Shown in pieces: positions 9,036-47,729 of a DNA stretch of 64,000 nt. The stretch is from contig JAZDDE010000304.1 in assembly GCA_036679495.1 (NCBI GenBank), positions 6,674-70,673 on the forward strand. Reading direction: 5' to 3'. The notes below the pieces were generated by a model. That model was given only the letters and a program-made list of their open reading frames with translations. It searched no databases and was not told the origin of the DNA. The DNA comes from Gemmatimonadota bacterium. Its GTDB lineage: Bacteria > Gemmatimonadota > Gemmatimonadetes > Palauibacterales > Palauibacteraceae. Position 1 is the first letter of the stretch; the number at the start of each line of letters is the position of its first letter. The position numbers and the translations under genes are program-made.

Positions 9036-9900
9036 GTGGGCGGGATGGCAGGTAGGAGCAGAACATCTCGGGTGACCGTGTCGATTCGCGGTCTGGCCCG
9101 CGGACTTCGATTCGGGCTGGGAAACGTCTGGTTCCAGGGTCTCGGTGCGCTGCCGGATATGCTTGCTACACCCAAGTTCTTTATTCTGGCGCAGGGACGC
9201 TCGGGCAGTTCCCTGCTGACGACTCTGCTGGACAGCCACCGGAGGATCAAGTGTGAGGGGGAGGTCTTGTCCATCCCTCTGCGTTTTCCGCGAGCGTTTC
9301 TTCGTGGCAAAGTCCTGCGGTACGGCCTCCGGGGCCAAGGGTGGGGCTTCAAGGCCAAGCACCATCAGATCATTAGGAACCCAGGGGATCGCGGACCTCA
9401 AGGCCTTCTTGAGAGACCTCGAAGCGGCGGGGTGGAAGCTGATCTATCTCCGGCGCAAGAACGTCGTCTACCAGGCTCTCTCGACCCTGGTTGGTGAGAA
9501 GCGGCGCAAGTGGTTGCACAAGGCGAGCGAGGGTCCGCTGGCCAAGGTCAGTATCGATCCTGGCGAGCTGGCTGTGTACATAAAAAGCCGCGAGAACCAG
9601 ACCGCACAAGAGTTTGAGGCCCTGGCGGGTCTGCCGCACCTGGCCCTAACTTATGAAGGTGACCTCGAGGATCCTGGCGTTCATCAACCGACATACGACC
9701 GGATCTTCGACCTGCTCGGACTCACGACGAATCCGGTGTGTTCTGCTCTTGGCAGAACTGGCAGCCGGAACATCGACGACGTGATCGAGAATCCGGTCGA
9801 GGTCAGGGCCGAACTCAAGAGGTTAGGCTACGCTCACTACCTCTTGCTAGGGCTTGCAATCATCGGCCGGCGAGGGCCGAGGGCCTGGCCTCGCTCGTGA
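9036..9900 (+). pseudogene. Stf0-like sulfotransferase, split by an apparent +1 frameshift near 9385 (possible pseudogene or sequencing error)
   Basis: ORF 9036..9497 carries the 5'-PSB motif (PKFFILAQGRSGSSLL). ORF 9253..9900 in the +1 frame carries the 3'-PB region (LIYLRRKNVVYQALS). Sense in both frames is lost around the ccagggg run at 9378-9392. Confidence 0.5.
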
Positions 9901-10843
9901 CCACCTCGGCGTAACGCTTGCGAAACCAGCGGTAGGTCTCCTCGATTCCCGCCCGCAGCTCGATCTTGTGGCGCCAGCCGAGCGCGTGGAGGCGCGAGAC
10001 ATCGAGCAACTTCCGCGGAGAACCGTCCGGCTTGCCCGCGTCGAAGGCCAGTTCGACCTCGGGAGCCACGACGCTACGGATAATCTCGGCGAGTTCGCGG
10101 ATGCTGAGATCGACGCCGGTTCCCACGTTGATGTGAGAGTCCTCGTCATAGTGGCGCAGGAGAAAGAGGCAGGAGTCGGCGAGGTCGTCGACGTGGAGGA
10201 ACTCCCGGCACGGCGAACCGCTGCCCCAGACCATCACTTCGCGCTCACCGTTGAGCTTGGCTTCGTGGAACTTGCGCAGCAAGGCCGGCAGCACATGGGA
10301 GCTTTCGAGGTCGAAGTTGTCGTTTGGGCCGTAGAGGTTGGTCGGCATAGCCGAGATGAAGTCGGCTCCGTACTGCCGGCGGTAGGCCTGACAGAGCTTG
10401 ATGCCGGCGATCTTGGCGATGGCGTAGGCCTCGTTGGTGGGCTCGAGCCGACCGCTGAGCAAGGCCTCTTCAGTCATCGGCTGGGGCGCCTCACGCGGAT
10501 AGATGCACGAGCTGCCGAGGTAGAGCAAGCGCTTGACCGCGAATTTGTGGGCAGCGTGCACTACCGTCGCGTGGATCATGAGGTTGTCGTAGATGAACTC
10601 GGCCGGTCGGGTCGAGTTGGCGAGGATGCCGCCGACCGTGCCGGCGACGAGAAAGACGTAATCCGGCCGGTTGCTCTGGAACCAGTAGTTCACCGCGGCC
10701 TGGTCCCGCAGGTCGAGCTGTGCGCGGGTCGCCGTCAACACGTTGGTAAAGCCCTCGGTCTCGAGCTTGCGCAGGAGGGCCGAGCCGACAAGGCCGCGGT
10801 GGCCGGCGACATAGATGGCTGAGTTTAGTGGTAGTTCCTCCAT
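9860..10843 (-). CDS. fcl: GDP-L-fucose synthase (GDP-4-keto-6-deoxymannose 3,5-epimerase/4-reductase)
   Basis: Fcl/WcaG hallmarks: NAD(P)-binding GHRGLVGSA, catalytic SSCIYP and YAIAK. Start moved to the internal ATG at 10843. Confidence 0.85.
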   Translation of the reverse strand: MEELPLNSAIYVAGHRGLVGSALLRKLETEGFTNVLTATRAQLDLRDQAAVNYWFQSNRPDYVFLVAGTVGGILANSTRPAEFIYDNLMIHATVVHAAHKFAVKRLLYLGSSCIYPREAPQPMTEEALLSGRLEPTNEAYAIAKIAGIKLCQAYRRQYGADFISAMPTNLYGPNDNFDLESSHVLPALLRKFHEAKLNGEREVMVWGSGSPCREFLHVDDLADSCLFLLRHYDEDSHINVGTGVDLSIRELAEIIRSVVAPEVELAFDAGKPDGSPRKLLDVSRLHALGWRHKIELRAGIEETYRWFRKRYAEVVTSEARPSALAGR

Positions 10844-10914
10844 CAACAACTCCTCGAGTGACTGGCGAACCCTATCAAGATGTGGCGCTCCGCTAGCTGC
10901 GGAGTGATCGATAC

Positions 10915-11721
10915 CTATGGCAGCGAACGCTCCCGGAGAATGCGCCACCCGGCGACCTCCTGGGCCAGTGTGAGCTCCTTGGTGACGGAGTCGCTGTAGC
11001 GGTCCGAGCGAAAGGTCTGAGCGAAGCGCACGACGACTTCACTCTCGTGAATCAGATCCAGCTGGATGTCGTCAAGCTCCACCTCTATGAACTCCGGCGC
11101 TTCGAGACGCTGGGTTCGGGTTTCCACCCAGGCCTCGCGCGTGGAGCCATCGCCAGGCTGGAAGAGCCTCGAGTAGCACTCCAGGTAGCTCGCCACGTCC
11201 TGCCTCTGCCAGGCCGTCCGCCAGATCTCGACGAGGGCGAGAACTGGGCTGGCGATTTCTGCCGACTGATTGGAAGCGGCCTCTCGGACCTCGGCCTCTT
11301 GGACCCCGGGCTCAGGGATCTCGGCCTCAGGGACCTCGACCTCCTGGACCCCGGCCTCCGGGACCCGGTCTTCAACTTGCTCCGAGATCTCGTCAACGGG
11401 CGCTGCATCCTCGGCGCTTCTCTCGACGAGTCGAACCAGGTCAGAGGGCGACAGACGGGCGAGAGGAATCTCAAAGCGCACTCGATGACCGGGCTTGACC
11501 TTCGCGGCGTCCTCGATGTCGAGAAGTGTGCGCTGCGCCGTCGACTCTACGACCTCAGCCAGGCCGACCTCCACGATCTTGACTTCGTCGCTGACTTGCA
11601 GGTCGTAGTAGACCGTGCCGGTGTCGCCCGATCGAAGCAGGTCGCCGAGGGGCTCCTCGAGGTACACCTGGCCGCCGCTAAGCGAGATCACCGTAGCGAT
11701 CAAGACGACGGTGGCGTTCAT
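10915..11721 (-). CDS. hypothetical secreted protein with an acidic Pro/Glu/Val tandem repeat and an NTF2/SnoaL-like C-terminal domain
   Basis: N-terminal signal peptide, (VPEAGVQE/VPEAEIPE)n repeats and a C-terminal W..W..D...YL..YS motif block. 4-nt overlap with wcaF. Confidence 0.45.
   Translation of the reverse strand: MNATVVLIATVISLSGGQVYLEEPLGDLLRSGDTGTVYYDLQVSDEVKIVEVGLAEVVESTAQRTLLDIEDAAKVKPGHRVRFEIPLARLSPSDLVRLVERSAEDAAPVDEISEQVEDRVPEAGVQEVEVPEAEIPEPGVQEAEVREAASNQSAEIASPVLALVEIWRTAWQRQDVASYLECYSRLFQPGDGSTREAWVETRTQRLEAPEFIEVELDDIQLDLIHESEVVVRFAQTFRSDRYSDSVTKELTLAQEVAGWRILRERSLP
11281..11375. repeat. imperfect tandem nucleotide repeats of ~24 nt (ctcggcct.. ggacc ccgg gctcagggat) inside the CDS
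   Basis: Read directly. They encode the acidic PE-repeats. Confidence 0.5.
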
Positions 11722-12290: not shown

Positions 12291-13463
12291 TCAGCGATCT
12301 CGCAGGACTTCAGAATAGCAACTCTCCAGCCGGTCGGTGCTGGCCTCCCAGGTGAGCTCAGCGACGGCGAACGAGCGACCGCGCGCACCCATCTCCGCGG
12401 CCGCTGAGGGGTCGTCGAGCAAGCCAACCAGGGCCTCGTATAGCGTGCCGGGGTCCGCACAGTCGCAGACGACACCGGCTTGCGCTTGATCAACATGAGA
12501 GCGGCTGTTCACGCGGTCGGAAATTACCACCGGCAGTCCCATCTGCATGGCCTCGGCGACGACCAGCCCGAAGTTCTCCTGCCGTGACGGCAGAACGAAG
12601 AGCTCCGCGGCGGCGTAGGCGCCCCATTTGAGATCGCCGGTCAGGCGGCCGCAGAGAAGTACCGAATCGCTAAGGCCAAGGTTCTCGATCTGTCGGCGCA
12701 TGGAGCTCATGTGTTCGTCTTCGCCTGAGCCAGCAATGACGAACAGCAGGTCCGGCCGGCCAGCGATGAGCCTGGGCAGAACGTCGAGCAAGCGATCCAA
12801 CCCCTTCTTCGGGTGGATACGACTGAGAAACAGCATCCGCCGGCGATCGCGAGCGCTAGGGAAACGGTTCAGGAAGTCCTGGCGCAAGGGAGCGGGGTCC
12901 CGGCGGTGGGGTGCGTCGGAGCCTAGTGGCACGATGGCGGCGGGCGCCAACCCCTTGACGGCCGCTTCGGCCAGCTCGCGCTCCTCCTCGGTGGTGTAGA
13001 CGGTGCGCGCCGCCCGGCGCAAATTGCGCTTTTCGAGCAGAGCCAAGTAGACCGCCTTGCGCGCCCGCCGCACGCCGAGCGAGTACGGGTCAAGCATCCC
13101 ATGCGGCATGATGAGGTAGGGCTTGCCGTGGTGCTTGCATAGTCGCCGCGCGGGGGCGAAGAAGGGGTGCCAGAGAGTATGGATGTGCACCAAGTCAGCC
13201 GTCGCTATTGCCTGAGCCAGGACTGATCCGGCTCGTGAGCTCAGACCCAAGAGGCTCGGCCGATCAGCGGTCAGCAGTTCGAGTTCGACGCCCGCCGGCA
13301 CCGTAGCCACGATCTCGTCGTGGGCGTCGGCTCCGTGGAGGTCGGTCGTGAGAATCGTGATGTCCCAACCCCGCTCGGCGAGGGCGGCTGAGTGTCGGTT
13401 GACGACGACCGGTGGTCCGCCGGCACGTGGGTGAAGATAGGGCGTGACTTGGAGCAGTTTCAC
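12291..13463 (-). CDS. glycosyltransferase, GT4 family
   Basis: GT-B fold with the C-terminal E-x7-E region (PSRQENFGLVVAEAMQMGLPVV). GTG start at 13463 has a GGAGG SD 6 nt upstream and a GTGA overlap with the upstream stop. Confidence 0.8.
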   Translation of the reverse strand: MKLLQVTPYLHPRAGGPPVVVNRHSAALAERGWDITILTTDLHGADAHDEIVATVPAGVELELLTADRPSLLGLSSRAGSVLAQAIATADLVHIHTLWHPFFAPARRLCKHHGKPYLIMPHGMLDPYSLGVRRARKAVYLALLEKRNLRRAARTVYTTEEERELAEAAVKGLAPAAIVPLGSDAPHRRDPAPLRQDFLNRFPSARDRRRMLFLSRIHPKKGLDRLLDVLPRLIAGRPDLLFVIAGSGEDEHMSSMRRQIENLGLSDSVLLCGRLTGDLKWGAYAAAELFVLPSRQENFGLVVAEAMQMGLPVVISDRVNSRSHVDQAQAGVVCDCADPGTLYEALVGLLDDPSAAAEMGARGRSFAVAELTWEASTDRLESCYSEVLRDR

Positions 13464-14650
13464 GCCGAGCCTCCAGCCCTGATGGCCTCCCGGTAGACCT
13501 CGACAGTCTGCCGTGCCATCACCTCGACGCTGAAGCGGTGGCGGGCGGTCTCGGCTGCCGCCGTGCCGAGGCGGTGCCGCTCGCCGGCGTCGTTCAGTAG
13601 CGCGGAGAGCACTCCGACCCATGCGTCAAGGTCGCCGGGAACACAAAGCCGTCCGTTCTCGCCATCGGTGATCGCCTCCGGAATGCCATCGGTAGCACTC
13701 GCGCAGCAGGCCAGACCGGCGGTCAGCGCCTCGAGCAGAGCGAGGGGCAGGCCCTCGAATTTGGAAGGCATGAGGAAGACATCGAAGGCGTGCAATCGCT
13801 CGGCGGCGTCGTTCTGCCATCCATCGATGAGGAGCCGCTCCCCTAGATTGTGCCGGCCGGCTGCGGCCTCGACTTCGCTGCGCATCCTGCCGTCACCGAT
13901 CCACACACCCTTCACCGGCAGGCCCGCGGCCGTCAGGGCCGCCAACACTTCGACCACAAAGAGAGGATCCTTTTGGGCTTCTATGCGGCCCACGCAGCCG
14001 AGCACGAGTTCGTTGTCGGCGACACGCCAGTGGTCGCGGAAGCGTCGGCGCAGAGACCTGGCGTCGCCAGCCGTTGGCGCTTGCGCTACGCCATTGTGGA
14101 TCGCGTACAAGCGCTTCTGGGAGCGCAGGAACGGCAGCCAATCTGCCAGCGTGTCCGCCGAGTGCCGGGAGACTGCGATGTGGAGTGCCGACGAGCGTTC
14201 GAGAGCGCGGCGGGCCACGCGCAGCCGCAGTCCACCGGCGACAGCACCGAGCGTTTTTGGCGAACCCGGAATGTGAATCGTCGAAACTTTCGGCAGCTGC
14301 GCGTCACTGGCTGCCGCCAGAAGGTCGAGCCCATCCTCCGCCACCTGCTGATTCAGGTGCACGACATCTGGGGAGAGCCGCCGGAATTCGTCGCTCAGCC
14401 GCCCTATCTGGCGGCGGTCGTGCGTGGCTCCAAGAACGCGTAGCGGGCGCTGGTACATATTGGTGAGTGGCAGTCGATGAACCTGGGCCAAGGACTCAAT
14501 CTGGGTCGCGAGTTCGTCCATCACCGGAGCGCTGGCCAGGAGGACGTGAACCTCGTGCTCGAGCGCCGTGAGACCTTCGGCCAAGCGCCGGAGGTAGATC
14601 TCGCCACCGCCGCGCGAGCCGGAGTTGGACGAGACGAGGAGGACCTTCAC
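13460..14650 (-). CDS. glycosyltransferase, GT4 family
   Basis: MKVLLVS..GGGE N-terminus and MPSKFEGLPLALLEALTAGL C-terminal motif. Confidence 0.8.
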   Translation of the reverse strand: MKVLLVSSNSGSRGGGEIYLRRLAEGLTALEHEVHVLLASAPVMDELATQIESLAQVHRLPLTNMYQRPLRVLGATHDRRQIGRLSDEFRRLSPDVVHLNQQVAEDGLDLLAAASDAQLPKVSTIHIPGSPKTLGAVAGGLRLRVARRALERSSALHIAVSRHSADTLADWLPFLRSQKRLYAIHNGVAQAPTAGDARSLRRRFRDHWRVADNELVLGCVGRIEAQKDPLFVVEVLAALTAAGLPVKGVWIGDGRMRSEVEAAAGRHNLGERLLIDGWQNDAAERLHAFDVFLMPSKFEGLPLALLEALTAGLACCASATDGIPEAITDGENGRLCVPGDLDAWVGVLSALLNDAGERHRLGTAAAETARHRFSVEVMARQTVEVYREAIRAGGSA

Positions 14651-14680: not shown

Positions 14681-15538
14681 CTACAGGCCGAGCAGTTTCT
14701 TGGCGCTATCGTAGGCTCGGATGAACGGCCGGCGAGTCGCGCTGAAGCGACGATTGCTTGCTCGGAATCCCGCTAGCTGCTCGACCATGGGTGGGTCGAT
14801 CTCAGCAACCCGGAGCTCGAATTGCTGGCGGGCCCACTCGTAGAGTTCTATGTCGAGCTGGTTTCTGGCGGCCACCTCGGCCAAAAGGCGATCGTCGAGG
14901 TCAGGAGCCGGTGTGCCGACTCGCCGAACATTGCGCGACACATAGAAGCAGTCACGCCAGCCGAGTTCGCGCTTGAAGAGGAGGAGTGATTCGTCGAAGC
15001 GCTCCACCAGCCCGAGCGAGTAGAAGTGGTCACGCACGTTCGCTTTGGCGTGCGCGAGAAGTGCCGCGCCGCACTGGCCCAGTGGAGTGCGGTTGATAAA
15101 CAAATCGTCGCTGCCTCCGGCGAGGAACCGCACCTGCCCGTTGTCGAGCTCCATCAGGTCGGTCTCGAGTAGAAACTCCCGAGCGCTCCGGCCTACCGCC
15201 TGCTCGTGGTAGTAAGCGCCCGGCGTCGATGCCGAGTAGTTGTAGAGCGAGACCAGACGGCGCACCGGATCGCGCAGCAGGCAGAGGTACTTTGCGGGTC
15301 GCGCAATCAGCTCGTGCACGCCGAAGCTGAAGTGGCCGGCGATAAAGCGCTCGCTCGCCGGCACCGTGCGAATAGCCTCCGGGATTCCTACGTTTGTTGG
15401 GCGGCCATGCCGTAGGCGCCGAAGCATGCGCCAGGCAAAGCCGGGCCCGTAGTTACGCAGGAGCACATGATGGAGAGTTGAGCCGGCGTTCTTCTGGATA
15501 TGGAGAAAAACGACCACGGGCTGCGGGGGGTGGGTCAT
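14681..15538 (-). CDS. sulfotransferase (Sulfotransfer_2-like)
   Basis: 5'-PSB-like VVVFLHIQKNAGST and 3'-PB-like LLRDPVRRLVSLY motifs. Start at the internal ATG with a 4-nt overlap. Confidence 0.65.
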   Translation of the reverse strand: MTHPPQPVVVFLHIQKNAGSTLHHVLLRNYGPGFAWRMLRRLRHGRPTNVGIPEAIRTVPASERFIAGHFSFGVHELIARPAKYLCLLRDPVRRLVSLYNYSASTPGAYYHEQAVGRSAREFLLETDLMELDNGQVRFLAGGSDDLFINRTPLGQCGAALLAHAKANVRDHFYSLGLVERFDESLLLFKRELGWRDCFYVSRNVRRVGTPAPDLDDRLLAEVAARNQLDIELYEWARQQFELRVAEIDPPMVEQLAGFRASNRRFSATRRPFIRAYDSAKKLLGL

Positions 15539-20226: not shown

Positions 20227-20250
20227 CGTGATCGGGCGCTGCCTTCCTGG

Positions 20251-32517: not shown

Positions 32518-32535
32518 CTGGCTAACAAGGGGTGG

Positions 32536-41505: not shown

Positions 41506-42570
41506 TCAATCGTTCTCCGGCCGCTCAGTCAGCCAGAATCTGCCGCGGGGTGAGCGGGCTCCCGAAGCTCGCTCGAGCTGCTGAATCGCCCGCCGTCGCG
41601 CCTCGCGGCTGGTTTCGGGAAGAACCTTCCGTAGGCCCCGTTTGAGGCGCCGTTTCCGCCACAGCTCGACTGCCTCCAGCCACGGCGGTCCTGAGGCTCG
41701 ATTGTTTCGAGTCTGCCCGAACTCGAGCAGGTAGCCGAGGCGCTCGAGAGCGTCGCCAGCCAGTCCTTCGAACGCGCGGATTTCGCGCTGTTTCAACTGG
41801 GAGCGATACTTGGCGGTGTTTCCCTGCATCAGCGGTTCCCCGAGGTTGCGCCACATGTCTGTCGTCGACGCCTCTGTACGAGCTCGGTCGCTCTCATTGA
41901 ACGACAGCATGCTGGGCTCGAACTCGAGTCCCAGTCCCGCACAGAGGTGGCGAAGCGTTGGCTCAGGGGCCTCGACGAGATCCTCGTACTTGACCGCCAC
42001 AATCAGATGTCGGGAGGCGTGATCGGTGCATACCTTCATGCAGTTCTCTTGCTCGTCCTGCCATTTCAGGGCGAGTTCTCTCCAGGTTAGTGCCAGGCGT
42101 CCGCTGTTCCGGAGGGAGAGGGCGACGTCGCGGCCGTCACGGTAGAGGTAGACGAGGCGGCTGGTCGGGAACGCCGCAGTCATGCCGTGAGTGAATCTCC
42201 AAAGGTCGTTCTCCTTGCACAGCCATGAGGTCTTCGATTCTGCACGAGCGTAGGCCGCGTAGAACTCGCCCACGATGCCGCACAGTGAATGGGACGGCGC
42301 CGCTGCTGCTATCGTGCCCGGGTCGAAGTGACCTTGCCAAGGGCTGAAGTGCGATAGCACAAGCTTCTTGCAGGCCTCGGCCACGCCCTCGCCGTATCCG
42401 GCCGTGTTGGGGTTTCCCAGTCGATCGACGAAGCGCCAGAGAACCTTTAGCATGTGGGGAGACGGAGGACCGCTGACCCGGCTGTGACGGTCGAGCATCA
42501 AACGCAAGACGTTGCTGCCCGATCTCTCGCTCGCGACGAGGAGGATCGGTCCTTGCGGAGTCTCGGCCAT
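41506..42570 (-). CDS. sulfotransferase
   Basis: 5'-PSB ILLVASERSGSNVL and 3'-PB VYLYRDGRDVALSL. The ORF extends to 42684, but that would overlap the upstream gene by 64 nt. Confidence 0.7.
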   Translation of the reverse strand: MAETPQGPILLVASERSGSNVLRLMLDRHSRVSGPPSPHMLKVLWRFVDRLGNPNTAGYGEGVAEACKKLVLSHFSPWQGHFDPGTIAAAAPSHSLCGIVGEFYAAYARAESKTSWLCKENDLWRFTHGMTAAFPTSRLVYLYRDGRDVALSLRNSGRLALTWRELALKWQDEQENCMKVCTDHASRHLIVAVKYEDLVEAPEPTLRHLCAGLGLEFEPSMLSFNESDRARTEASTTDMWRNLGEPLMQGNTAKYRSQLKQREIRAFEGLAGDALERLGYLLEFGQTRNNRASGPPWLEAVELWRKRRLKRGLRKVLPETSREARRRAIQQLERASGARSPRGRFWLTERPEND

Positions 42571-42620: not shown

Positions 42621-43694
42621 CTAGCGAAGCAGCGTGGGGCTCCTGTACCAGCGGCGATACTTTCTGAGGACACGCCACCTCCACCGGCGAAACTCACTCC
42701 GACTCCTGTGCCGGCTCTTCGAATCCAAACCGGGCGCACCGCAGATGAGGTCCAGATCGTAGCCTAGGTGCCGCTGTAGCTCCAGGGCCGACCGCGGTAG
42801 ATTGCGCTTTTCTCCGAGAGCAAGCAGCTCTTCGCCCGCCGATGAGAGCCCAAGCGCGCTAAAGACACTGCGAACAGGCGCCTCGAATTCCTTCTTGTAC
42901 TGTCCGACGCTAGTGGTGGCTATTCGATCGTTCTTGTTGCTTTTCCACCCTCTTATTTGCCTCCCGCCGGCTCCCTCGGCTTGCAGCATGGCCGGATGGA
43001 AGGGCAGATCAAGAAAGGCGCAGAGGTCGCGGACTACTGGCTCAGGGTCCCTCGCGAGATCCTCGTAACGCAGTTCGTAGTAGCCGGGCATCTCGCGGTG
43101 ACTGATTCCCGCCAGCGTGGCGCAGAACCAGCGAGATACCGCTCGAAACGGGGAGTGTCCTCGGCGCACGAGGGAGGCGACGCAGTCTCGTCCATCGCGG
43201 ATGATGTGCACGAACTGCGCTCCGGGAAAGAGACGACGGAGATGAGCGAAGCAGAACACGTTGCCAGGGGTCTTCTCGACCCACCGCTGCGCACCGCACG
43301 TTTCCCTTTCCCGATCGAGAAACGCCTTCACCATCGTGCCGTAGTCACTGCTCTCCCTCGCGAGTTGGAACAGATCCTTGAAAGTCCAGCTGTAGTCTTC
43401 GAGATGAGTGAACAGCCTGAAACCGCTTCCAACGAAGTGGTTCGGGTAGCCATTCTCAAGCCAGTCACCAATGTTGCGTTCGAACGAAGCTGGACTCTCG
43501 AGTAGGAGTCTTTGTTTGTCGAAGATCGCGAGCTCAGGACCAGCGTACAGATCGGGATGTCGACTCAGGATGACCCTTAGCAGAGAGCTGCCGGCGCTGG
43601 GTGCGTTGCCCAGGATGATCGGCGTGGATTGGTCAAAGGCGGTCAACTTCTCATTTCCCACGTCCCCCGGCCGCGAGCTGCGTAGATCGATCAT
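42621..43694 (-). CDS. sulfotransferase
   Basis: 5'-PSB IILGNAPSAGSSLL and 3'-PB VHIIRDGRDCVASL. Confidence 0.75.
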   Translation of the reverse strand: MIDLRSSRPGDVGNEKLTAFDQSTPIILGNAPSAGSSLLRVILSRHPDLYAGPELAIFDKQRLLLESPASFERNIGDWLENGYPNHFVGSGFRLFTHLEDYSWTFKDLFQLARESSDYGTMVKAFLDRERETCGAQRWVEKTPGNVFCFAHLRRLFPGAQFVHIIRDGRDCVASLVRRGHSPFRAVSRWFCATLAGISHREMPGYYELRYEDLARDPEPVVRDLCAFLDLPFHPAMLQAEGAGGRQIRGWKSNKNDRIATTSVGQYKKEFEAPVRSVFSALGLSSAGEELLALGEKRNLPRSALELQRHLGYDLDLICGAPGLDSKSRHRSRSEFRRWRWRVLRKYRRWYRSPTLLR

Positions 43695-43714: not shown

Positions 43715-44806
43715 CTAGCTCCTGAACAACCGCTTGAATCCTCCCGCTATTCGGGCCGCGTTCGCCTTGAGGCCCACTGGCCTAGCGGCGTGGCTCTTCC
43801 GAATAACCGCGTAGGGAGTCTGTCGGCCGCCGAGTCCGCGGAAGGCGTGCTCGATAGGCTCCATCACGGAGCCTTCAAAGTCGAAACGCGCGGCGACTCC
43901 AGCAGAAAACTTGATGGCCTCCCACATCGCCAGGCTCGAGGCGCCACTGCTTCGCAGGCTGGGCTCTGAACCGCCCATCAGGTAGTAGGCCGTCCCGTTG
44001 TGCCAGACGACGTAGACGGCAGCGTGGACTGTCCCTGAACGATCGCGCGCCGCCACGATCCTGCGGCCTGCATGGACGCGGCAGGCTAGATCGACCCGCT
44101 CGAGTAGGTCGGAGGGGATCGGATTCGCAAGTCCCTGTCGGCTAAAGGTCTTGTCGTTGAGTACCAGAAAAGCGTCGAAGCTGAGGTCCTGGTCGGCGAC
44201 CAGGCCGCTCTTGCGCGCCCGGTTGATGCGCGACCTCGTCGTGCTTCTCATCTCGCTCCAGAGACGCTCCGGGTCCGACAGATCCGGCAGCAGATAGGTG
44301 TATCGGCTGGTCTGATGGAAGCCCCGCCAGTGAAACGGGAGCCAATTGGTGAAGTTTTCATGGAAGCGGTGCCGAAACCCGATGAAAGAAGGGAGTTGAT
44401 CGATCAACTGGCTGATCAGCCGGTGCTCACGGGAGAGCCTCTCGGCGTACTTCGCCCCCGTGTCCGCGAAGAGTATCCCGAGTTTCTGCGTCAAGAGCGG
44501 CATGTCAATCACAAGGCCGCTCGGTCCCTCTTCGAAGACGATGGGCCAAGCAGCGGCGAGCTCGGAGCCACGCCCGACGGTCAGAACGGTGTAGGCGTCC
44601 GGCGCCACGGCGTCCAACCACCAGCGGTGGCAGTAGATGCTGCCCTGCCGGGACTGCCTAACCAGCTCCTCATAGAGGTCCTTGCCCCCTCGGGGCTCGT
44701 CCCTCGCGTGACCGTCGCCAACGTTCAGGGTTTGGAATTCCTTTGGTGTGTGGGTTCGACGAGTGGGGAGGAGACGCCTTCGGCGGACCAGGAATAGTCG
44801 ACGCAT
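43715..44806 (-). CDS. FemAB-like/GNAT-fold acyl- or aminoacyl-transferase (Acetyltransf_6-like)
   Basis: About 360-aa soluble protein whose composition and length resemble the FemAB/BioF2-like GNAT family often found in EPS loci. Start uncertain because candidate starts overlap wzt. Confidence 0.45.
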   Translation of the reverse strand: MRRLFLVRRRRLLPTRRTHTPKEFQTLNVGDGHARDEPRGGKDLYEELVRQSRQGSIYCHRWWLDAVAPDAYTVLTVGRGSELAAAWPIVFEEGPSGLVIDMPLLTQKLGILFADTGAKYAERLSREHRLISQLIDQLPSFIGFRHRFHENFTNWLPFHWRGFHQTSRYTYLLPDLSDPERLWSEMRSTTRSRINRARKSGLVADQDLSFDAFLVLNDKTFSRQGLANPIPSDLLERVDLACRVHAGRRIVAARDRSGTVHAAVYVVWHNGTAYYLMGGSEPSLRSSGASSLAMWEAIKFSAGVAARFDFEGSVMEPIEHAFRGLGGRQTPYAVIRKSHAARPVGLKANAARIAGGFKRLFRS

Positions 44807-46029
44807 ACTCCGCCTCTTGGGTCCGTTGCCGACCTGCCGCTGCCGTAGTAGTCGCCGGCGTGGACTTCTATCAACGCTGCACCGGAGATCTTGTCGGCTA
44901 AGCCTCCGTTTGCCTTGCACTTGAGACTCAAACGATAGGAGCCCGGGTACAAGGGGAAGCGCGGGAAGGTACAAACTACTCGGGTGTTGTTCGAACCGAC
45001 GTCGAGCCGAGCATCAACGACATCGCTCCGGCACTTGAAGAGGAAATGATCTCTCATGTTGAGGAAGGCCAGCGAGACCCAGAAGCCCGACACCTGGGGA
45101 CGAGGCGTCTCGAGCGTCACGACGACCTGAGTCTGTTGGCCGGTTCTCGCCGCAGGTATCTGCTCGCCGGCAGAGTTGCGCAGCTCGATGGACGCAAACC
45201 TGACGTCCCCTGAGCCATAGCGGTCGGTCCGACTTCTTAGGTCGGGGTTATGAGCCGCCGAGCTTTGTCGCACGTAGATGTCGAGCGCTCGCGCAGTCTC
45301 GGTGTCGGCAACTACTTGGCCTTGTTTCAGTACCAGAGTCCGCTGACACAGCGCCTCGACGGCGGCGAGGTTGTGGCTCACGAAGAGGATCGTCGCCCCG
45401 GACGAGGCCACATCTGCCATCTTGCTCAGGCACTTCTGCCGAAAGGAGGCGTCCCCCACGGCCAGCACCTCGTCAATGATGAGAACTTCGGGGTTGAGAT
45501 GGGCCGCAACTGCGAAGCCCAGCCGCACTCCCATTCCGCTCGAATAGCGCTTGACGGGGGTATCGAGAAAGCGCTCGACCTCCGAGAAGGCGACGATCTC
45601 GTCGAACTTGGCGTCAATCTCGCGCTTGCTCATCCCCAGGATCGCGCCGTTGAGATAGATGTTCTCTCTGCCCGTGAGCTCGGCATGAAAGCCAGTCCCA
45701 ACCTCGAGCAGGCACCCAACTCGACCCACGATCTCGGCCTGACCCTCGGTCGGCTCGGTGATTCGCGACAGAACCTTGAGCAGAGTGCTCTTGCCGGCAC
45801 CGTTGCCTCCGATGATGCCCAGAGCTTCTCCTTGAGCCACCTCGAATGAGATGTCGCGAATGGCCCAAATCTCTCGCGTGTCGGGAGTCTCGATGGGGTC
45901 CGGATCCCGTCTGCCCAAGGACTTCCGGGCCAGTCGAGAGATGCTCTCGCGAAGGGTCCGGTAGCCGACGGTCTCTCCGAGGCGGTACTTCTTGCCGAGG
46001 GCATCTACTCGGAGGGCGTAGCGACTCAT
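44725..46029 (-). CDS. wzt: ABC transporter ATP-binding protein Wzt/KpsT-like with a C-terminal glycan-binding extension
   Basis: Walker A GGNGAGKST, signature YSSGMGVRLGFA, Walker B LIIDEVLAVGD and H-loop SHN. A ~180-aa C-terminal extension is typical of Wzt. Confidence 0.85.
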   Translation of the reverse strand: MSRYALRVDALGKKYRLGETVGYRTLRESISRLARKSLGRRDPDPIETPDTREIWAIRDISFEVAQGEALGIIGGNGAGKSTLLKVLSRITEPTEGQAEIVGRVGCLLEVGTGFHAELTGRENIYLNGAILGMSKREIDAKFDEIVAFSEVERFLDTPVKRYSSGMGVRLGFAVAAHLNPEVLIIDEVLAVGDASFRQKCLSKMADVASSGATILFVSHNLAAVEALCQRTLVLKQGQVVADTETARALDIYVRQSSAAHNPDLRSRTDRYGSGDVRFASIELRNSAGEQIPAARTGQQTQVVVTLETPRPQVSGFWVSLAFLNMRDHFLFKCRSDVVDARLDVGSNNTRVVCTFPRFPLYPGSYRLSLKCKANGGLADKISGAALIEVHAGDYYGSGRSATDPRGGVCVDYSWSAEGVSSPLVEPTHQRNSKP

Positions 46030-46032
46030 CGA

Positions 46033-46974
46033 TCAGACCAGGTCAACAATCGTGTGCTCCATCCGCCGAAAGAAGAACACTCCTCCGACCAGCAGGCAAA
46101 CGACCATGAGCGACGAGACGAGCAGCAGCAAACCCGGCGGCTCGCCTCGACCGAGCAACGCCCATCGAAACCCCTCGATCACACCGGCCATCGGATTGAG
46201 TCCATAGATGGCTTGCCAGCGGGCGGGGATTACGGCCTGCGTCTCGTAGACAACAGGGCTGATGAATTGCCCGATAGAGATAATGAACGGAATGATGTAG
46301 CGCACATCTCGGTACAGGGCGTTGAGGGCAGAGAGCCATAGACCCGCCGCAAGCGAGGTCAAGACCGCGAGCAAGAGGAACAACGGCAGCGTCAGGATGC
46401 GCCATGTCGGCGTGAGGTCGTAGGGTCCAAGGACTGAGTAGCCGGCCATGATTACCAGTAGGACCAGGAAGGCGACGAAAAAGTCGATGAGCGCGCAAAT
46501 CACTGGCGAAGCAGGGGCCAGCAAACGGGGGAAGTAGACCTTCTTGACGAGGTTCGCATTGGCGACGAGGCTGCCCCCGGACTGGGCCACCGACGACGAG
46601 AACAGTTGCCAAGGAAGGAGCGCGCAGTAGGTGGTTACCGCGTATGGGATGCCTTCCCCAACGGGCTTGCGGCCTATCAAGCTGAAGAGCAGATTGAACA
46701 CCAGCATGGTGAGCAAGGGACGGATAATCGCCCAGCCGGCGCCAAGAACAGTCTGCTTGTAGCGAACCTTGATGTCGCGAAGCGATAGGAACCAGAGAAG
46801 CTCTCGGTAGCGCCAAAGCTCCTTCAGTCCGAGCGAGGGCCAACCCTGGTTGGCTTGAATGATCTGCACGACCCCCTTCGCTGGTCGGCTGGTTGTCCCG
46901 GGCGAAGCCGGCGCCTCATCGTGCCCAGGCTCTTGAGTCGGGTCTTCTTGAACACTAGTCGCGTCGCTTGTCAC
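46033..46974 (-). CDS. wzm: ABC-2 type polysaccharide export permease Wzm-like
   Basis: 6 TM helices with ABC-2 topology. GTG start at 46974 gives a GTGA overlap with the upstream stop. The 365-aa ORF N-terminus is Arg-rich and was rejected. Confidence 0.7.
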   Translation of the reverse strand: MTSDATSVQEDPTQEPGHDEAPASPGTTSRPAKGVVQIIQANQGWPSLGLKELWRYRELLWFLSLRDIKVRYKQTVLGAGWAIIRPLLTMLVFNLLFSLIGRKPVGEGIPYAVTTYCALLPWQLFSSSVAQSGGSLVANANLVKKVYFPRLLAPASPVICALIDFFVAFLVLLVIMAGYSVLGPYDLTPTWRILTLPLFLLLAVLTSLAAGLWLSALNALYRDVRYIIPFIISIGQFISPVVYETQAVIPARWQAIYGLNPMAGVIEGFRWALLGRGEPPGLLLLVSSLMVVCLLVGGVFFFRRMEHTIVDLV

Positions 46975-47729
46975 AACGTGGCCTCTGTGGCGTCGAGATG
47001 TCGGAACGAGGCGAGCCCGAGCTCTCGCATCTCCGTCGCGACCGTGGCTTCCAGCCTTGAGAAGCTCTCGGGGTCGAAGTGTTGGAAGTCGTGAGCCCTT
47101 CGTGGAGCGATGATCTCCAGACTCGAACACGCGCTTTCTATCTGGGTCCGCTGGGGCTCCCTGTCAGGGAAGAAAAATCGAACGACACGCTCGAGGGCCG
47201 TCCCAGGCTGGTCGACCAGATCTTCGTAAGCGACGTGGCAGGACATAGGGTGATCGCCGTCCAGAACCCATTTGCGGACGAAGGACTTCCAGAATGAGAG
47301 ATGTTTGACGACATATTGATCCCAAAGACTTCGAGTGTCGTCCAAGCCCATCTGCTTCATGAAAAGGAAGTAGTTGGAGATCGAGGCGAGGAGAGGACTG
47401 CGGTATTGAACCAGGGTTGGGATGGCGTAGTCGTTGACCATGGAGAGTCCGAAGTCGTGGTTCTTCGAGAGGATCACGGCCGAGCGAACACGGTCGGCCG
47501 TGAGCTCGGGTTCCGGCCTCGAGCTCGCCAAGGCAGGGAGGCGCCTCGCAAGGCCCAGGCGGACCAACAACCTCTCACCGAGAGTCGGCGGAGGGAGTGG
47601 ATGGGGGCGATCATCGCGCTCGAACTTGGGTGTGTACTTGAAGTCAGCCTCGACAAAGTAACCCTCGAGAAGACGGATCAGAAGGTGGTGGCCACTCCTT
47701 GGGAACGAGACTCCGCGGTAGTACCTCAT
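46971..47729 (-). CDS. sulfotransferase-like protein
   Basis: 5'-PSB-like YRGVSFPRSGHHLLIRLL. The 3' motif is weak (AVILSKNHD). Start at the internal ATG. Confidence 0.45.
   Translation of the reverse strand: MRYYRGVSFPRSGHHLLIRLLEGYFVEADFKYTPKFERDDRPHPLPPPTLGERLLVRLGLARRLPALASSRPEPELTADRVRSAVILSKNHDFGLSMVNDYAIPTLVQYRSPLLASISNYFLFMKQMGLDDTRSLWDQYVVKHLSFWKSFVRKWVLDGDHPMSCHVAYEDLVDQPGTALERVVRFFFPDREPQRTQIESACSSLEIIAPRRAHDFQHFDPESFSRLEATVATEMRELGLASFRHLDATEATL

What the first reader, a model, noticed from the sequence alone, without database searches (positions are those of the whole stretch)
9036..47729. Polysaccharide locus with nine sulfotransferase genes, the gene set for a heavily sulfated bacterial glycan
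Nine separate ORFs carry both PAPS-binding elements of carbohydrate sulfotransferases. These are a 5'-PSB motif (PKxGTT/RSGTT-like, near the N-terminus) and a 3'-PB motif (RDPxxRxxS-like). The ORFs start at 9036 (frameshifted), 14681, 27267, 32675, 35854, 40540, 41506, 42621 and 46971 (the last one weaker). They are interleaved and translationally coupled with GT2/GT4 glycosyltransferases, Wzm/Wzt and a polymerase. The context therefore points to sulfation of the glycan itself, not of a small molecule. Bacterial surface polysaccharides with several distinct sulfation steps are very rare; NodH/NoeE and a few cyanobacterial or marine EPS systems are the main examples. Nine paralogues with three different folds (Stf0-like, Sulfotransfer_1-like, Sulfotransfer_2-like) imply a glycosaminoglycan-like, multiply sulfated product.
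Basis: partly seen in the sequence, partly recalled or inferred. Interest (0 to 1): 0.85.

Follow-up and report, generated by a model that had tools for sequence, protein, structure and literature searches.

The report
Sulfotransferase-rich surface polysaccharide gene cluster
An uncultured Acidobacteriota bacterium carries a roughly 50-kb cell-surface sugar-polymer gene cluster with eight intact and one broken sulfotransferase gene, far more than the two or three in any bacterial cluster studied so far, so it probably makes one or two heavily sulfated glycans, though no chemistry confirms this.

Summary
All nine ORFs carry both PAPS-binding motifs.

- Seven pass Pfam sulfotransferase gathering thresholds.
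- The "weak" ninth (46971-47729) belongs to a family with no Pfam or NCBIfam model. Its profile and AlphaFold model match only sulfotransferases.
- The first (9036-9900) is a real sulfotransferase-family gene broken by a one-base frameshift.

The genes sit among at least 11 glycosyltransferases, often overlapping them by 4 nt. The cluster also holds Wzm/Wzt, a Wzy-type polymerase, Wza/Wzc, WecA, amino-sugar enzymes, three methyltransferases and an O-acetyltransferase.

- The nine genes represent four or five families of one fold, not three folds.
- They are less than 29% identical to each other, so they are not recent paralogues.
- Six form one roughly 16-kb operon with Wzm/Wzt, and two lie in the Wzy block. 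Two glycans are therefore more likely than one nine-fold sulfated polymer.
- No uronic-acid or GAG-synthase genes support the "GAG-like" label.
- No PAPS-supply genes lie in the window.

The host is an Acidobacteriota MAG, probably Thermoanaerobaculia. Its closest relative lacks the locus. Uncharacterised MAG loci with 4-6 sulfotransferases exist elsewhere. This is an extreme new member of a known but little-studied kind. Sulfation itself remains inferred.

The parts
9036..9900 (+). Sulfotransferase gene (Stf0/Sulfotransfer_3-like family) broken by a 1-nt frameshift near 9373-9377. The N-terminal half is in the frame of 9036, the C-terminal half in the frame of 9253.
   Evidence: Motifs GRSGSS and RRKNVVYQALS. 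1079 homologues of the C-terminal half. Colinear alignment A3. 18 of 20 family members hit PF13469. The corrected protein itself scores 25.5 bits, below the gathering score of 27.
9860..10843 (-). GDP-L-fucose synthase (Fcl). Conserved next to TonB in the nearest relative, so it may belong to the genome backbone rather than the island.
   Evidence: NCBIfam NF047922, 501 bits against cutoff 500. Synteny.
10915..11721 (-). Cds6_C/NTF2-like protein of unknown role
   Evidence: Pfam PF24125, 60 bits
11718..12281 (-). WcaF-family polysaccharide O-acetyltransferase
   Evidence: NF007797, 228 bits against cutoff 192
12291..14650 (-). Two GT4 glycosyltransferases (12291-13463 and 13460-14650), overlapping by 4 nt
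   Evidence: Pfam Glycos_transf_1 and Glyco_transf_4. Overlap.
14681..15538 (-). Sulfotransferase of the Gal-3-O / HS-6-OST-like (Sulfotransfer_2-type) class. Its start overlaps the upstream GT4 stop by 4 nt.
   Evidence: PF06990, 60.8 bits. HS 6-OST in PDB at 1e-5. Motifs KNAGST and RDPVRRLVS. Overlap.
15535..16650 (-). GT4 glycosyltransferase
16647..17996 (-). Wzy-type oligosaccharide repeat-unit polymerase with 9 or more hydrophobic segments
   Evidence: TIGR04370, 51.4 bits against cutoff 40..
17981..23065 (-). GT-A-like DxD protein (17981-18967), a GT4 (18964-20226) and three GT2 genes (20251-21150, 21147-22124, 22124-23065)
24711..27248 (-). GT2 (24711-25520), SAM methyltransferase (25517-26386) and FkbM-family methyltransferase (26334-27248)
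27267..28163 (-). Sulfotransferase (Sulfotransfer_1), closest to Alicyclobacillus 3RNL and to heparan-sulfate 3-OST/NST domains
   Evidence: PF00685, 60.9 bits. PDB 3rnl at 2.8e-46 and NDST/3-OST at about 1e-7.
28151..31711 (+). Gtr-like module: a GT2 with two C-terminal TM helices (its true start is probably downstream of 28151), a SAM methyltransferase (29381-30088) and a 533-aa polytopic membrane protein (30110-31711) that may be a GT-C
   Evidence: The GT-C role is inferred only.
31836..32606 (-). Small secreted or membrane-anchored protein of unknown function; last gene of the long minus-strand operon
32675..33703 (-). Sulfotransferase (Sulfotransfer_3)
   Evidence: PF13469, 78 bits. CurM ST at 3e-8. 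Motifs PRSGTT and RHPVNVYSS.
33718..35857 (-). GT4 (33718-34860) and a GT-A-like protein (34934-35857, weak GT2 match)
35854..36696 (-). Sulfotransferase (Sulfotransfer_1, HS-3-OST/NST-like), overlapping both neighbours by 4 nt
   Evidence: PF00685, 69 bits. PDB hits. Overlaps. Gene call of 280 aa in an independent Logan assembly.
36693..37922 (-). GT-D-fold-like putative glycosyltransferase
   Evidence: PF22882, 28.3 bits against cutoff 27
37982..40505 (-). DegT-family sugar aminotransferase (37982-39352) and GFO/IDH/MocA sugar oxidoreductase (39345-40505). Together they make an amino sugar in the manner of WbpB/WbpE.
   Evidence: The same pair lies beside ST42621-subfamily genes in L004/L006 and L138/L139; in L005 the homologue of the oxidoreductase lies beside one just before the contig ends, so the aminotransferase could not be seen there.
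40540..41463 (-). Sulfotransferase (Sulfotransfer_3)
   Evidence: PF13469, 66 bits. Motifs PRSGTT and SRNELASAVS.
41506..42570 (-). Sulfotransferase (Sulfotransfer_3, CurM/TPST-like)
   Evidence: PF13469, 79.6 bits..
42621..43694 (-). Sulfotransferase (Sulfotransfer_3 subfamily with a P-S-x-G-S-S loop and a basic C-terminal helix)
   Evidence: PF13469, 96.4 bits. Alignment A1. AF2 pLDDT 85. Foldseek best hits OLS/CurM ST and TPST at 1e-10 to 1e-8.
43715..44608 (-). GNAT/FemAB-like acyltransferase
   Evidence: PF13480, 46.8 bits. Homologue at the same position in L005.
44725..46869 (-). Wzt ABC ATPase with a C-terminal carbohydrate-binding domain (44725-46029) and Wzm ABC-2 permease (46033-46869)
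46971..47729 (-). Sulfotransferase-fold protein of a family with no Pfam or NCBIfam model. Motifs are GVSFPRSGHH, KNHDF and QYRSPLLASIS. It is the first gene of the operon.
   Evidence: Homologues lie in glycan loci L087 and L088.
47972..49174 (+). GT4 glycosyltransferase, divergent from the sulfotransferase operon
49171..55116 (-). Wza-like OPX exporter (49171-50403), two unknown envelope proteins (50509-51915 and 51887-52726), and a Wzc-like PCP/tyrosine autokinase (52726-55116)
55316..56467 (+). WecA/MraY-family initiating phosphoglycosyltransferase
   Evidence: PF00953, 136.8 bits..
56508..60054 (-). FGE/EgtB-C-like domain protein, a TPR protein and a Wzy_C (O-antigen-ligase-like) membrane protein. 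This is the probable right edge of the locus.

Best explanation
The window holds a roughly 50-kb cell-surface glycan biosynthesis and export region, from about 9 to 60 kb. The host is an uncultured Acidobacteriota bacterium, probably of the class Thermoanaerobaculia.

Eight intact, soluble PAPS-type sulfotransferases with no signal peptide are encoded among at least 11 glycosyltransferases. They come from four or five mutually distant families. A ninth is frameshifted.

Inferred mechanism: WecA starts a glycan on undecaprenyl phosphate. GT2 and GT4 enzymes extend it at the cytoplasmic face. There the sulfotransferases use cytoplasmic PAPS to sulfate specific hydroxyl (possibly amino) positions of the lipid-linked glycan before export. 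Three methyltransferases and an O-acetyltransferase add further decoration.

Six sulfotransferases form one operon of about 16 kb with Wzm/Wzt, an oxidoreductase/aminotransferase pair for an amino sugar, and only three or four glycosyltransferases. That implies an ABC-transporter-exported glycan with about one or more sulfates per sugar. Two further sulfotransferases lie in a Wzy-polymerase block. The locus therefore most likely makes two sulfated glycans, or one glycan with a sulfated side decoration, rather than a single nine-fold sulfated polymer. Export across the outer membrane would use Wza/Wzc, or ligation by the Wzy_C protein.

Shown: gene identities, fold, motifs and operon coupling. 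Inferred: sulfation, acceptors and number of products.
For: - Pfam and NCBIfam assignments cover every large ORF.
- Both PAPS motifs are present in all nine.
- Fold is confirmed for the two least standard members.
- ST27267 and ST35854 are closest to heparan-sulfate 3-OST/NST domains, and ST14681 to HS 6-OST/Gal-3-OST, which are carbohydrate sulfotransferase classes.
- No sulfotransferase has a TM segment or signal peptide.
- 4-nt overlaps link sulfotransferases to glycosyltransferases.
- Independent Logan assemblies from two runs reproduce the Wzm-to-ST35854 operon with identical proteins.
- The core Wzm-Wzt-ST42621-GNAT-GFO recurs in a Phycisphaeraceae MAG.
- ST42621-subfamily genes lie in glycan loci in all five contexts examined. 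In four of the five a GFO oxidoreductase is nearby; the DegT aminotransferase was seen in three, and in L005 the contig ends in the GFO gene.
- Characterised precedents show that sulfotransferases inside polysaccharide loci do give sulfated polymers (PMC8205485; PMC11641403).
Against: - There is no chemistry and no expression data.
In Vibrio KMM 8419 these genes lie inside the locus.
- No Wzx flippase was found for the Wzy block.
- One sulfotransferase is broken.
- The ST42621 subfamily lacks the usual Lys/Arg of the 5'-PSB loop.
- Four Sulfotransfer_3 members are closest in the PDB to CurM/OLS and tyrosylprotein sulfotransferases, so their acceptor class cannot be read from sequence.
- The locus is absent from the nearest known relative, so its function rests on one MAG lineage.
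Confidence: 0.7

Rival explanations
1. One reading: all nine sulfotransferases act on one polymer, giving a single glycosaminoglycan-like product with about nine distinct sulfation steps.
For: All genes lie in one contiguous region that shares a single WecA, Wza and Wzc. Three sulfotransferases resemble heparan-sulfate sulfotransferases. Amino-sugar genes are present.
Against: One gene is frameshifted and lies outside the conserved TonB-Fcl junction. The sulfotransferases are split between a Wzm/Wzt operon and a Wzy-type block, which are normally alternative assembly routes. The window has no UDP-sugar 6-dehydrogenase, C5-epimerase or GAG synthase family.
Confidence: 0.15
2. The sulfated glycan is not a free capsule, EPS or O-antigen. 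It is transferred to protein (S-layer or general O-glycosylation) or to a glycolipid. The Wzy_C membrane protein would act as an oligosaccharyltransferase.
For: The Wzy_C family includes PglL-type O-oligosaccharyltransferases as well as WaaL ligases (established knowledge). A secreted repeat protein (23311-24597) and other secreted proteins are encoded inside the locus. Rhizobial and mycobacterial sulfotransferases act on lipid-linked glycans (PMC11625862).
Against: Wza, Wzc and Wzt_C are typical of polysaccharide export. Nothing identifies a target protein.
Confidence: 0.12
3. Some or most of the Sulfotransfer_3-type enzymes act on non-sugar acceptors such as peptide tyrosine (RaxST/TPST-like) or small molecules. 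Only two or three enzymes would sulfate the glycan.
For: The closest solved relatives of 32675, 40540, 41506 and 42621 are CurM/OLS and tyrosylprotein sulfotransferases. Distant homologues are common in Streptosporangiaceae genomes.
Against: These genes sit inside one operon with Wzm/Wzt, glycosyltransferases and amino-sugar genes. All five contexts examined for ST42621 relatives are glycan loci. NodH, a sugar sulfotransferase, is also PF13469 (PMC11625862). The window has no PKS/NRPS, RaxX-like peptide or PCAT exporter.
Confidence: 0.1
4. The locus is a horizontally acquired, partly decaying island. Its sulfotransferases are mostly non-functional or unsupplied with PAPS, so the glycan is weakly sulfated or not at all.
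For: One sulfotransferase is frameshifted. GC is lower than in the flanks. The nearest relative lacks the locus. No PAPS genes are in the window. The ST42621 subfamily lacks the PSB Lys/Arg.
Against: Eight ORFs are intact with conserved motifs. Tight operon overlaps are maintained. Identical operon sequence was recovered from two further sequencing runs. The PSB variant is invariant across a 17-member subfamily, which suggests selection rather than decay.
Confidence: 0.1

Closest known systems
Synechocystis sp. PCC 6803 xss (synechan) cluster (Maeda et al. 2021, PMC8205485)
   Same: One locus combines sulfotransferases from distinct subfamilies with many glycosyltransferases and a PCP. Sulfation is thought to occur on the lipid-linked unit in the cytoplasm. 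The authors note that cyanobacterial sulfotransferases sit in both Wzy-type and ABC-type clusters.
   Different: xss has two sulfotransferases against eight intact here. It uses only Wzx/Wzy, has the XssQ/R/S regulators, and lies on a megaplasmid of a cyanobacterium. Here there is a Wzm/Wzt operon, no Wzx, no such regulators, and the host is an Acidobacteriota MAG. Synechan chemistry is known; nothing is known here.
Vibrio sp. KMM 8419 sulfated capsule locus (PMC11641403)
   Same: An ABC-transporter-exported polysaccharide whose locus holds glycosyltransferases and several sulfotransferases. The sulfated structure is proven by NMR.
   Different: It has three sulfotransferases spread over 80 genes and includes cysN/D/C for PAPS synthesis. 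The window has eight intact plus one frameshifted in 39 kb and no PAPS genes.
Pontiella sulfatireligans F21 putative sulfated GAG-like cluster (PMC7356697)
   Same: A GT2/GT4-rich cluster with a methyltransferase, a sulfotransferase next to a sugar aminotransferase, a polyprenyl-phosphate GT2 and a large YfhO-like membrane protein. The organism makes mostly N-sulfated polymers.
   Different: That cluster has a single sulfotransferase. The host is a Kiritimatiellae isolate with measured sulfated EPS.
Rhizobial and mycobacterial carbohydrate sulfotransferases (NodH, KpsS, LpsS, Stf0; summarised in PMC11625862)
   Same: Cytoplasmic PAPS-dependent enzymes of the PF13469/Stf0 type that sulfate sugars of lipid-linked or surface glycans. 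The broken 9036 gene belongs to a Stf0/Sulfotransfer_3-like family.
   Different: These are single enzymes for one position, not arrays of eight. There is no close sequence relationship.
Animal heparan-sulfate sulfotransferases (3-OST, NDST N-sulfotransferase domain, 6-OST)
   Same: ST27267 and ST35854 match 3-OST/NST domains at 1e-7 to 1e-10, and ST14681 matches 6-OST at 1e-5. The fold and PAPS motifs are the same.
   Different: The animal enzymes are Golgi-lumenal type II membrane proteins acting on a completed GAG chain. Those here are soluble cytoplasmic proteins, and the locus has no heparosan or chondroitin synthase and no uronic-acid genes.
E. coli O9a-type Wzm/Wzt O-polysaccharide export
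   Same: An ABC-2 permease, an ATPase with a C-terminal carbohydrate-binding domain (Wzt_C, 34.9 bits against cutoff 30.4), WecA initiation, and methyltransferases that could cap the chain.
   Different: No WbdD-like kinase-methyltransferase terminator was identified, and the nature of any terminal cap is unknown. Sulfated substrates are not known for this system.
Uncharacterised MAG loci found here (L080 Solirubrobacterales; L138/L139 JGI metagenome; L005 Phycisphaeraceae)
   Same: Several sulfotransferases sit beside GT4s, Wzx or Wzm/Wzt and GFO+DegT. L005 shares the Wzm-Wzt-ST-GNAT-GFO core.
   Different: They hold fewer sulfotransferases (six genes, four and one or two), and mostly from one family (Sulfotransfer_3). 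The window mixes four or five families.

Membership tests
PAPS-dependent sulfotransferase superfamily (each of the nine ORFs) | Profile-HMM membership above curated threshold | tested here: met
   Seven of nine are above Pfam gathering score. 46971 has no direct hit, but its family profile hits only sulfotransferases in the PDB. The frameshift-corrected 9036 scores 25.5 against 27 bits, while 18 of 20 of its full-length homologues pass.
PAPS-dependent sulfotransferase superfamily | 5'-phosphosulfate-binding loop ((K/R)xGxx(S/T)) and 3'-phosphate-binding R...S motif | tested here: met
   Both are present in all nine translations. The exception is ST42621, whose loop is P-S-A-G-S-S with no Lys/Arg. 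This variant is invariant across its 17-member subfamily.
PAPS-dependent sulfotransferase superfamily | Sulfotransferase alpha/beta fold | tested here: met
   AF2 plus Foldseek for X46971 and ST42621. The other seven were not modelled.
PAPS-dependent sulfotransferase superfamily | PAPS-dependent sulfuryl transfer to an acceptor | not testable with these tools
   Needs an enzyme assay.
ABC-transporter-dependent (Wzm/Wzt) polysaccharide pathway | ABC-2 permease plus an ATPase, optionally with a C-terminal glycan-binding domain | tested here: met
   PF01061 at 65 bits, PF00005 at 74 bits and PF14524 at 34.9 bits against cutoff 30.4.
ABC-transporter-dependent (Wzm/Wzt) polysaccharide pathway | Initiating polyprenyl-phosphate GlcNAc-1-P transferase, and cytoplasmic completion of the chain | tested here: met
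   A WecA/MraY-family gene is at 55316-56467 (PF00953, 137 bits). All glycosyltransferases and sulfotransferases of the operon lack signal peptides. Cytoplasmic completion itself is inferred.
ABC-transporter-dependent (Wzm/Wzt) polysaccharide pathway | Chain terminator or cap enzyme recognised by Wzt_C | tested here: inconclusive
   Three methyltransferases are present, but no WbdD-like kinase-methyltransferase was identified.
Wzx/Wzy-dependent polysaccharide pathway | Wzy polymerase | tested here: met
   TIGR04370, 51.4 bits against cutoff 40.
Wzx/Wzy-dependent polysaccharide pathway | Wzx (MOP-family) flippase | tested here: not met
   No ORF in the window hits PF01943, PF13440 or any related family. 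It could be encoded elsewhere.
Wzx/Wzy-dependent polysaccharide pathway | PCP tyrosine autokinase and OPX exporter | tested here: met
   Wzc-like: TIGR01007, 159 bits against cutoff 108, with a Tyr-rich tail. Wza-like: Poly_export plus SLBB.
Glycosaminoglycan-like polymer biosynthesis | Uronic-acid supply (UDP-sugar 6-dehydrogenase) and a GAG-type synthase, with or without C5-epimerase | tested here: not met
   None of these families appears in any window ORF. By contrast the related locus L138 does carry a UDP-sugar dehydrogenase.
Glycosaminoglycan-like polymer biosynthesis | Hexosamine or amino sugar in the backbone | tested here: inconclusive
   A GFO oxidoreductase and a DegT aminotransferase are present, and WecA implies a HexNAc primer. 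Backbone composition is unknown.
Sulfated-polysaccharide locus with its own PAPS supply (Vibrio KMM 8419 type) | cysC/cysDN (and cysQ) within the locus | tested here: not met
   No such domains occur in any window ORF, and no unannotated gap is large enough to hide them. The genome-wide presence of these genes could not be tested.
Synechan-type xss cluster | XssS/R/Q two-component plus STAND regulator set next to the cluster | tested here: not met
   No response-regulator, histidine-kinase or STAND domains occur in window ORFs.

The most novel reading that the evidence does not exclude
The six-sulfotransferase Wzm/Wzt operon makes a hyper-sulfated glycan with about one or more sulfates per sugar on a short repeat built by only three or four glycosyltransferases. 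The glycan contains a 3- or 4-amino sugar.

At least one enzyme would N-sulfate that amino group, a bacterial counterpart of heparan N-sulfation. The candidate is the ST42621 subfamily, which travels with the oxidoreductase/aminotransferase pair across phyla and has an atypical P-S-x-G-S-S PAPS loop. The operon also begins with a sulfotransferase family that current profile libraries do not model.

If so, this would be the first genetically defined prokaryotic route to a heparin-like sulfation density. It would also name a producer for the 'sulfated GAG-like' polymers detected chemically in sediments, granular sludge and Pontiella cultures.
Probability: 0.2. Interest if true: 0.8.

Novelty: new member of a known kind. 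Interest (0 to 1): 0.55.

Why it matters
Sulfated polysaccharides such as heparin, carrageenan and fucoidan are valuable, and they come almost entirely from animals and algae. As late as 2021-2026, papers still describe bacterial sulfated polysaccharides as essentially cyanobacterial. Characterised bacterial loci hold only two or three sulfotransferases.

One compact operon with six mutually distant sugar-associated sulfotransferases, plus two more nearby, is a ready-made panel of candidate regio-specific polysaccharide sulfotransferases for enzymology and glyco-engineering.

It also extends likely sulfated-glycan production to Acidobacteriota. Together with the multi-sulfotransferase MAG loci seen here in Actinomycetota and Planctomycetota, it suggests that sulfated surface glycans are more widespread in uncultured bacteria than the literature assumes. 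That bears on the unidentified producers of the 'sulfated GAG-like' polymers in sediments and sludge.

Tried and rejected
- Pfam and NCBIfam on the unassigned ORFs (17981, 23311, 30110, 31836, 50509, 51887) found no hidden sulfotransferase, Wzx or PAPS gene, even at E up to 10.
- phmmer with all nine sulfotransferases against every stop-to-stop ORF of the window found no tenth copy.
- I looked for an independent assembly across the frameshift, using the TonB protein and the 198-aa C-terminal ORF. Nothing is on record, so sequencing error and true pseudogene cannot be separated.
- The window's own genome is not among the GTDB representatives scanned. PAPS genes, Wzx and exact taxonomy could therefore not be checked. 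Taxonomy rests on SerRS similarity alone.
- The metagenome scan with the X46971 family gave 49 loci. Annotating their neighbours by phmmer with window proteins was too insensitive to establish a general context.
- The promoter/terminator scan of 27-33 kb was at background level.
- Literature searches for sulfotransferases in Acidobacteriota/Thermoanaerobaculia, and for the sample accessions, returned nothing relevant.
- Recent tandem duplication was rejected as the origin of the array, because maximum pairwise identity is 28.5%.
- 'Non-sulfotransferase P-loop proteins' was rejected.

Full report
**Source and setting**

The window is about 63% G+C. It is identical to part of a 70,904-bp NCBI contig that carries no protein names (100% hits P0001, P0025 and P0145). 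Two Logan assemblies, SRR32233996 and SRR32233995, contain the 35.8-51.6 kb stretch with identical proteins.

The seryl-tRNA synthetase at 5363-6640 is 72-79% identical to proteins named as Acidobacteriota or Thermoanaerobaculia MAGs. It is 92% identical to one on a 2.2-Mb metagenome contig. The host is therefore an uncultured Acidobacteriota bacterium, probably of the class Thermoanaerobaculia.

**Checking the observation**

I scanned every long ORF against Pfam. Seven of the nine flagged ORFs pass sulfotransferase gathering thresholds:

| ORF | Pfam family | Bits |
|---|---|---|
| 14681 | Gal-3-O_sulfotr | 60.8 |
| 27267 | Sulfotransfer_1 | 60.9 |
| 32675 | Sulfotransfer_3 | 78 |
| 35854 | Sulfotransfer_1 | 69 |
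| 40540 | Sulfotransfer_3 | 66 |
| 41506 | Sulfotransfer_3 | 79.6 |
| 42621 | Sulfotransfer_3 | 96.4 |

The translations show a 5'-PSB loop and a 3'-PB R...S motif in all nine.

*The 'weaker' ORF, 46971-47729.* It has no Pfam or NCBIfam hit. A search of 5.8 billion proteins found only 24 relatives, five of which carry PF00685 or PF13469. Their alignment (A2) has invariant GVS(F/W)PRSGH, KNHD and Q-x-R...S motifs. The profile hits only sulfotransferases in the PDB, best 3e-7. An AlphaFold model (pLDDT 79.9, pTM 0.75) gives sulfotransferases for all top-50 Foldseek hits. Two homologues sit in glycan loci. One lies beside three GT4s, an FkbM methyltransferase and two Sulfotransfer_2 genes. It is a sulfotransferase-fold protein from a family that the profile libraries do not model.

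*The frameshifted ORF, 9036-9900.*
- The C-terminal half has 1079 homologues. Most are 255-275 aa long, with the match at residues 105-255.
- The frameshift-corrected protein aligns colinearly with them over both halves (A3).
- 18 of 20 members hit Sulfotransfer_3 and 5 hit Stf0.
- The break is one extra base at about 9373-9377.
- No independent assembly covers that spot. I cannot say whether it is a pseudogene or an assembly error.

*No tenth copy.* A phmmer search with all nine found none.

The count is therefore eight intact sulfotransferase-fold genes plus one disrupted.

**The surroundings**

The region from about 9 to 60 kb is a surface-glycan locus.

*Block A, 10.9-28.2 kb, minus strand.* It holds:
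- a WcaF-family O-acetyltransferase;
- four GT4 and four GT2 genes, plus a GT-A-like protein;
- a Wzy-type polymerase (TIGR04370 above cutoff);
- two methyltransferases;
- sulfotransferases 14681 and 27267.

*Block B, 28.2-31.7 kb, plus strand.* It is a Gtr-like module: a GT2 with two C-terminal TM helices, a methyltransferase and a 533-aa polytopic membrane protein.

*Block C, 31.8-47.7 kb, minus strand.* It is one operon. In transcription order it encodes:
- sulfotransferase 46971;
- Wzm, then Wzt with a Wzt_C domain;
- a GNAT/FemAB-like acyltransferase;
- sulfotransferases 42621, 41506 and 40540;
- a GFO oxidoreductase and a DegT aminotransferase;
- a GT-D-like protein;
- sulfotransferase 35854;
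- a GT-A-like protein and a GT4;
- sulfotransferase 32675;
- a small secreted protein.

*Beyond block C.* There follow a divergent GT4, Wza, two unknown envelope proteins, a Wzc tyrosine autokinase and WecA. The last three genes encode an FGE-like protein, a TPR protein and a Wzy_C ligase-like protein.

*Other features of the locus.*
- GDP-fucose synthase (9860-10843) lies at the left edge.
- Many neighbouring genes overlap by 4 nt, including ST14681/GT4, GT-D-like/ST35854 and ST35854/GT-A-like.
- No sulfotransferase has a signal peptide or TM segment.
- The window has no Wzx, no UDP-sugar 6-dehydrogenase, no GAG synthase, and no cysC, cysDN or cysQ.

**How the sulfotransferases relate to each other**

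They are very distant. The best pair, 27267 and 35854, is 28.5% identical. The next, 41506 and 42621, is 26%. Most pairs are not detectable by BLASTP. They are not recent duplicates. This fits distinct specificities.

They share one fold and fall into four or five families, not 'three folds'.

By sequence, 27267 and 35854 are nearest to the Alicyclobacillus sulfotransferase 3RNL, and then to heparan-sulfate 3-OST and NDST domains. ST14681 is nearest to HS 6-OST and Gal-3-OST. The Sulfotransfer_3 members are nearest to CurM/OLS and tyrosylprotein sulfotransferases. That says nothing firm about their acceptors; NodH is also PF13469 (PMC11625862).

The ST42621 subfamily has an invariant P-S-x-G-S-S loop without the usual Lys/Arg. 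It also has a conserved basic C-terminal helix, which may give peripheral membrane association. This is unexplained.

**Comparative evidence**

*The locus is not conserved in the closest relative.*
- On the 2.2-Mb contig of the 92%-SerRS relative, the synteny Hfq-PdxA-...-SerRS-Na/Ca exchanger-...-TonB-Fcl is kept.
- There, TonB and Fcl are adjacent, with no sulfotransferase between them, and Fcl is followed by an unrelated SH3 gene.
- The best database matches to ST42621 and X46971 are only 50% and 33% identical.
- The locus also has a lower G+C content than its flanks.

Together these point to a variable, probably horizontally acquired surface-glycan island.

*The core module recurs elsewhere.* Wzm-Wzt-ST42621-GNAT-GFO appears in a Phycisphaeraceae MAG (L005). 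ST42621 relatives also sit next to GFO+DegT in a Thermodesulfobacteriota MAG (L004/L006). In a JGI metagenome contig they do so again, this time with three further sulfotransferases, Wzx, a UDP-GlcNAc 2-epimerase and a UDP-sugar dehydrogenase (L138). A fifth relative sits in a NeuB/CMP-sugar glycan locus.

*Sulfotransferase density.* Among 80 sulfotransferase-anchored genome loci of up to 21 kb:

| Sulfotransferases per locus | 1 | 2 | 3 | 4 | 6 |
|---|---|---|---|---|---|
| Number of loci | 53 | 20 | 3 | 3 | 1 |

. The six-gene locus is L080, from a Solirubrobacterales soil MAG. Pfam confirms six sulfotransferase genes, one with two domains, plus three GT4s in 13 kb. The window holds seven in its densest 20.5 kb and nine in 39 kb. 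It is at the extreme, but it is not alone.

**Mechanism**

What follows is inferred. WecA primes undecaprenyl phosphate. Cytoplasmic glycosyltransferases extend the glycan. The soluble sulfotransferases, whose genes overlap glycosyltransferase genes, use cytoplasmic PAPS to sulfate defined positions before export. This is the logic proposed for synechan and for the Vibrio KMM 8419 capsule (PMC8205485, PMC11641403).

In block C, six sulfotransferases accompany only three or four glycosyltransferases and an amino-sugar pathway. That implies a short repeat with high sulfate density, exported by Wzm/Wzt. The Wzt_C domain suggests recognition of a terminal cap.

Block A would give a second, Wzy-polymerised, methylated, acetylated and less sulfated polymer. 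Its flippase was not found.

Whether any enzyme N-sulfates the amino sugar cannot be decided from sequence. Pontiella polymers are reported to be mostly N-sulfated (PMC7356697).

**Comparison with what is known, and novelty**

Sulfotransferase-bearing polysaccharide loci are known:
- xss in Synechocystis, with two sulfotransferases;
- the Vibrio KMM 8419 capsule locus, with three sulfotransferases and in-locus cysNDC;
- the Pontiella cluster, with one;
- Actinoplanes wps-1, with two (PMC13390465);
- rhizobial KpsS, LpsS and NodH.

The literature still calls bacterial sulfated polysaccharides rare or cyanobacterial (PMC8205485, PMC13390465). I found nothing on Acidobacteriota.

This locus is a new and extreme member of that kind. 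It has eight intact sulfotransferases from four or five families, one of them unmodelled, and six of them in a single ABC-transporter operon. It is not a new kind of system. The 'GAG-like' label is not supported by the gene content.

**Verdict**

Sulfation of one or two surface glycans is the best explanation, at about 0.7. It is unproven until PAPS supply and polymer chemistry are shown. Interest is moderate to high for glycobiology and enzyme discovery, at 0.55.

Noticed in passing
window 23311-24597 (+): A secreted 428-aa protein built from about 7-8 tandem repeats of roughly 47 aa (EFQVNxYT...GNFVVVW...QDGS..GVFGQRY). It has no Pfam or NCBIfam match. It is encoded on the opposite strand in the middle of the glycosyltransferase block and could be a propeller-like glycan-binding or processing protein.
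   Followed up: partly
window 28151-31711 (+): A GT2 with two C-terminal TM helices (GtrB/ArnC architecture), a SAM methyltransferase and a 533-aa polytopic membrane protein with no family assignment. The arrangement looks like a periplasmic, Gtr-type glycan-decoration module, similar to the yfhO/upmt genes in the Pontiella cluster.
   Followed up: partly
window 42621-43694 (-) and alignment A1: This Sulfotransfer_3 subfamily has an invariant P-S-x-G-S-S loop where sulfotransferases normally have Lys/Arg. It also has a conserved Arg/Trp-rich C-terminal helix (residues 325-346 of the model). In four of five contexts examined it lies near a GFO oxidoreductase; the DegT aminotransferase was seen in three of them, and in the fourth (L005) the contig ends in the GFO gene.
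   Followed up: partly
L085/L086 against window 7929-10948: In the 92%-SerRS relative, a five-gene insert lies between the Na/Ca exchanger and TonB: an AMP-binding enzyme, a B12-radical SAM enzyme, a carrier protein, DUF374 and an unknown. There, TonB abuts Fcl. The window lacks that insert and instead has the frameshifted sulfotransferase between TonB and Fcl.
   Followed up: partly
L080 1101-13921 (Solirubrobacterales soil MAG CAVURM010000005.1): Six Sulfotransfer_3 genes, one with two sulfotransferase domains, are interleaved with three GT4 genes in 13 kb. This is an uncharacterised sulfotransferase array in Actinomycetota. L059, L073, L084, L031 and L045 have 3-4 each.
   Followed up: partly
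L138/L139 (JGI 3300023202 / 3300023199): A metagenome locus with four sulfotransferases, GFO+DegT, Wzx, GT4s, a UDP-GlcNAc 2-epimerase and a UDP-sugar 6-dehydrogenase. This gene set resembles the one for a di-N-acetylated mannuronic acid, but with several sulfotransferases added.
   Followed up: no
window 56508-57494 (-): An FGE-sulfatase/EgtB-C-terminal-like domain protein is co-oriented with a TPR protein and the Wzy_C ligase-like gene at the right edge of the locus. Any link to sulfate chemistry is unknown.
   Followed up: no
window 1743-5317 (-): Two large polytopic membrane proteins (691 and 552 aa as listed, with 12 and 10 hydrophobic segments) have no Pfam family. They are conserved in the same position, between PdxA and SerRS, in the relative.
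   Followed up: no
window 22000-48000: G+C is 59-63% across the central part of the locus, against 64-68% in the flanks. This is consistent with a horizontally acquired or fast-evolving surface-glycan island.
   Followed up: partly
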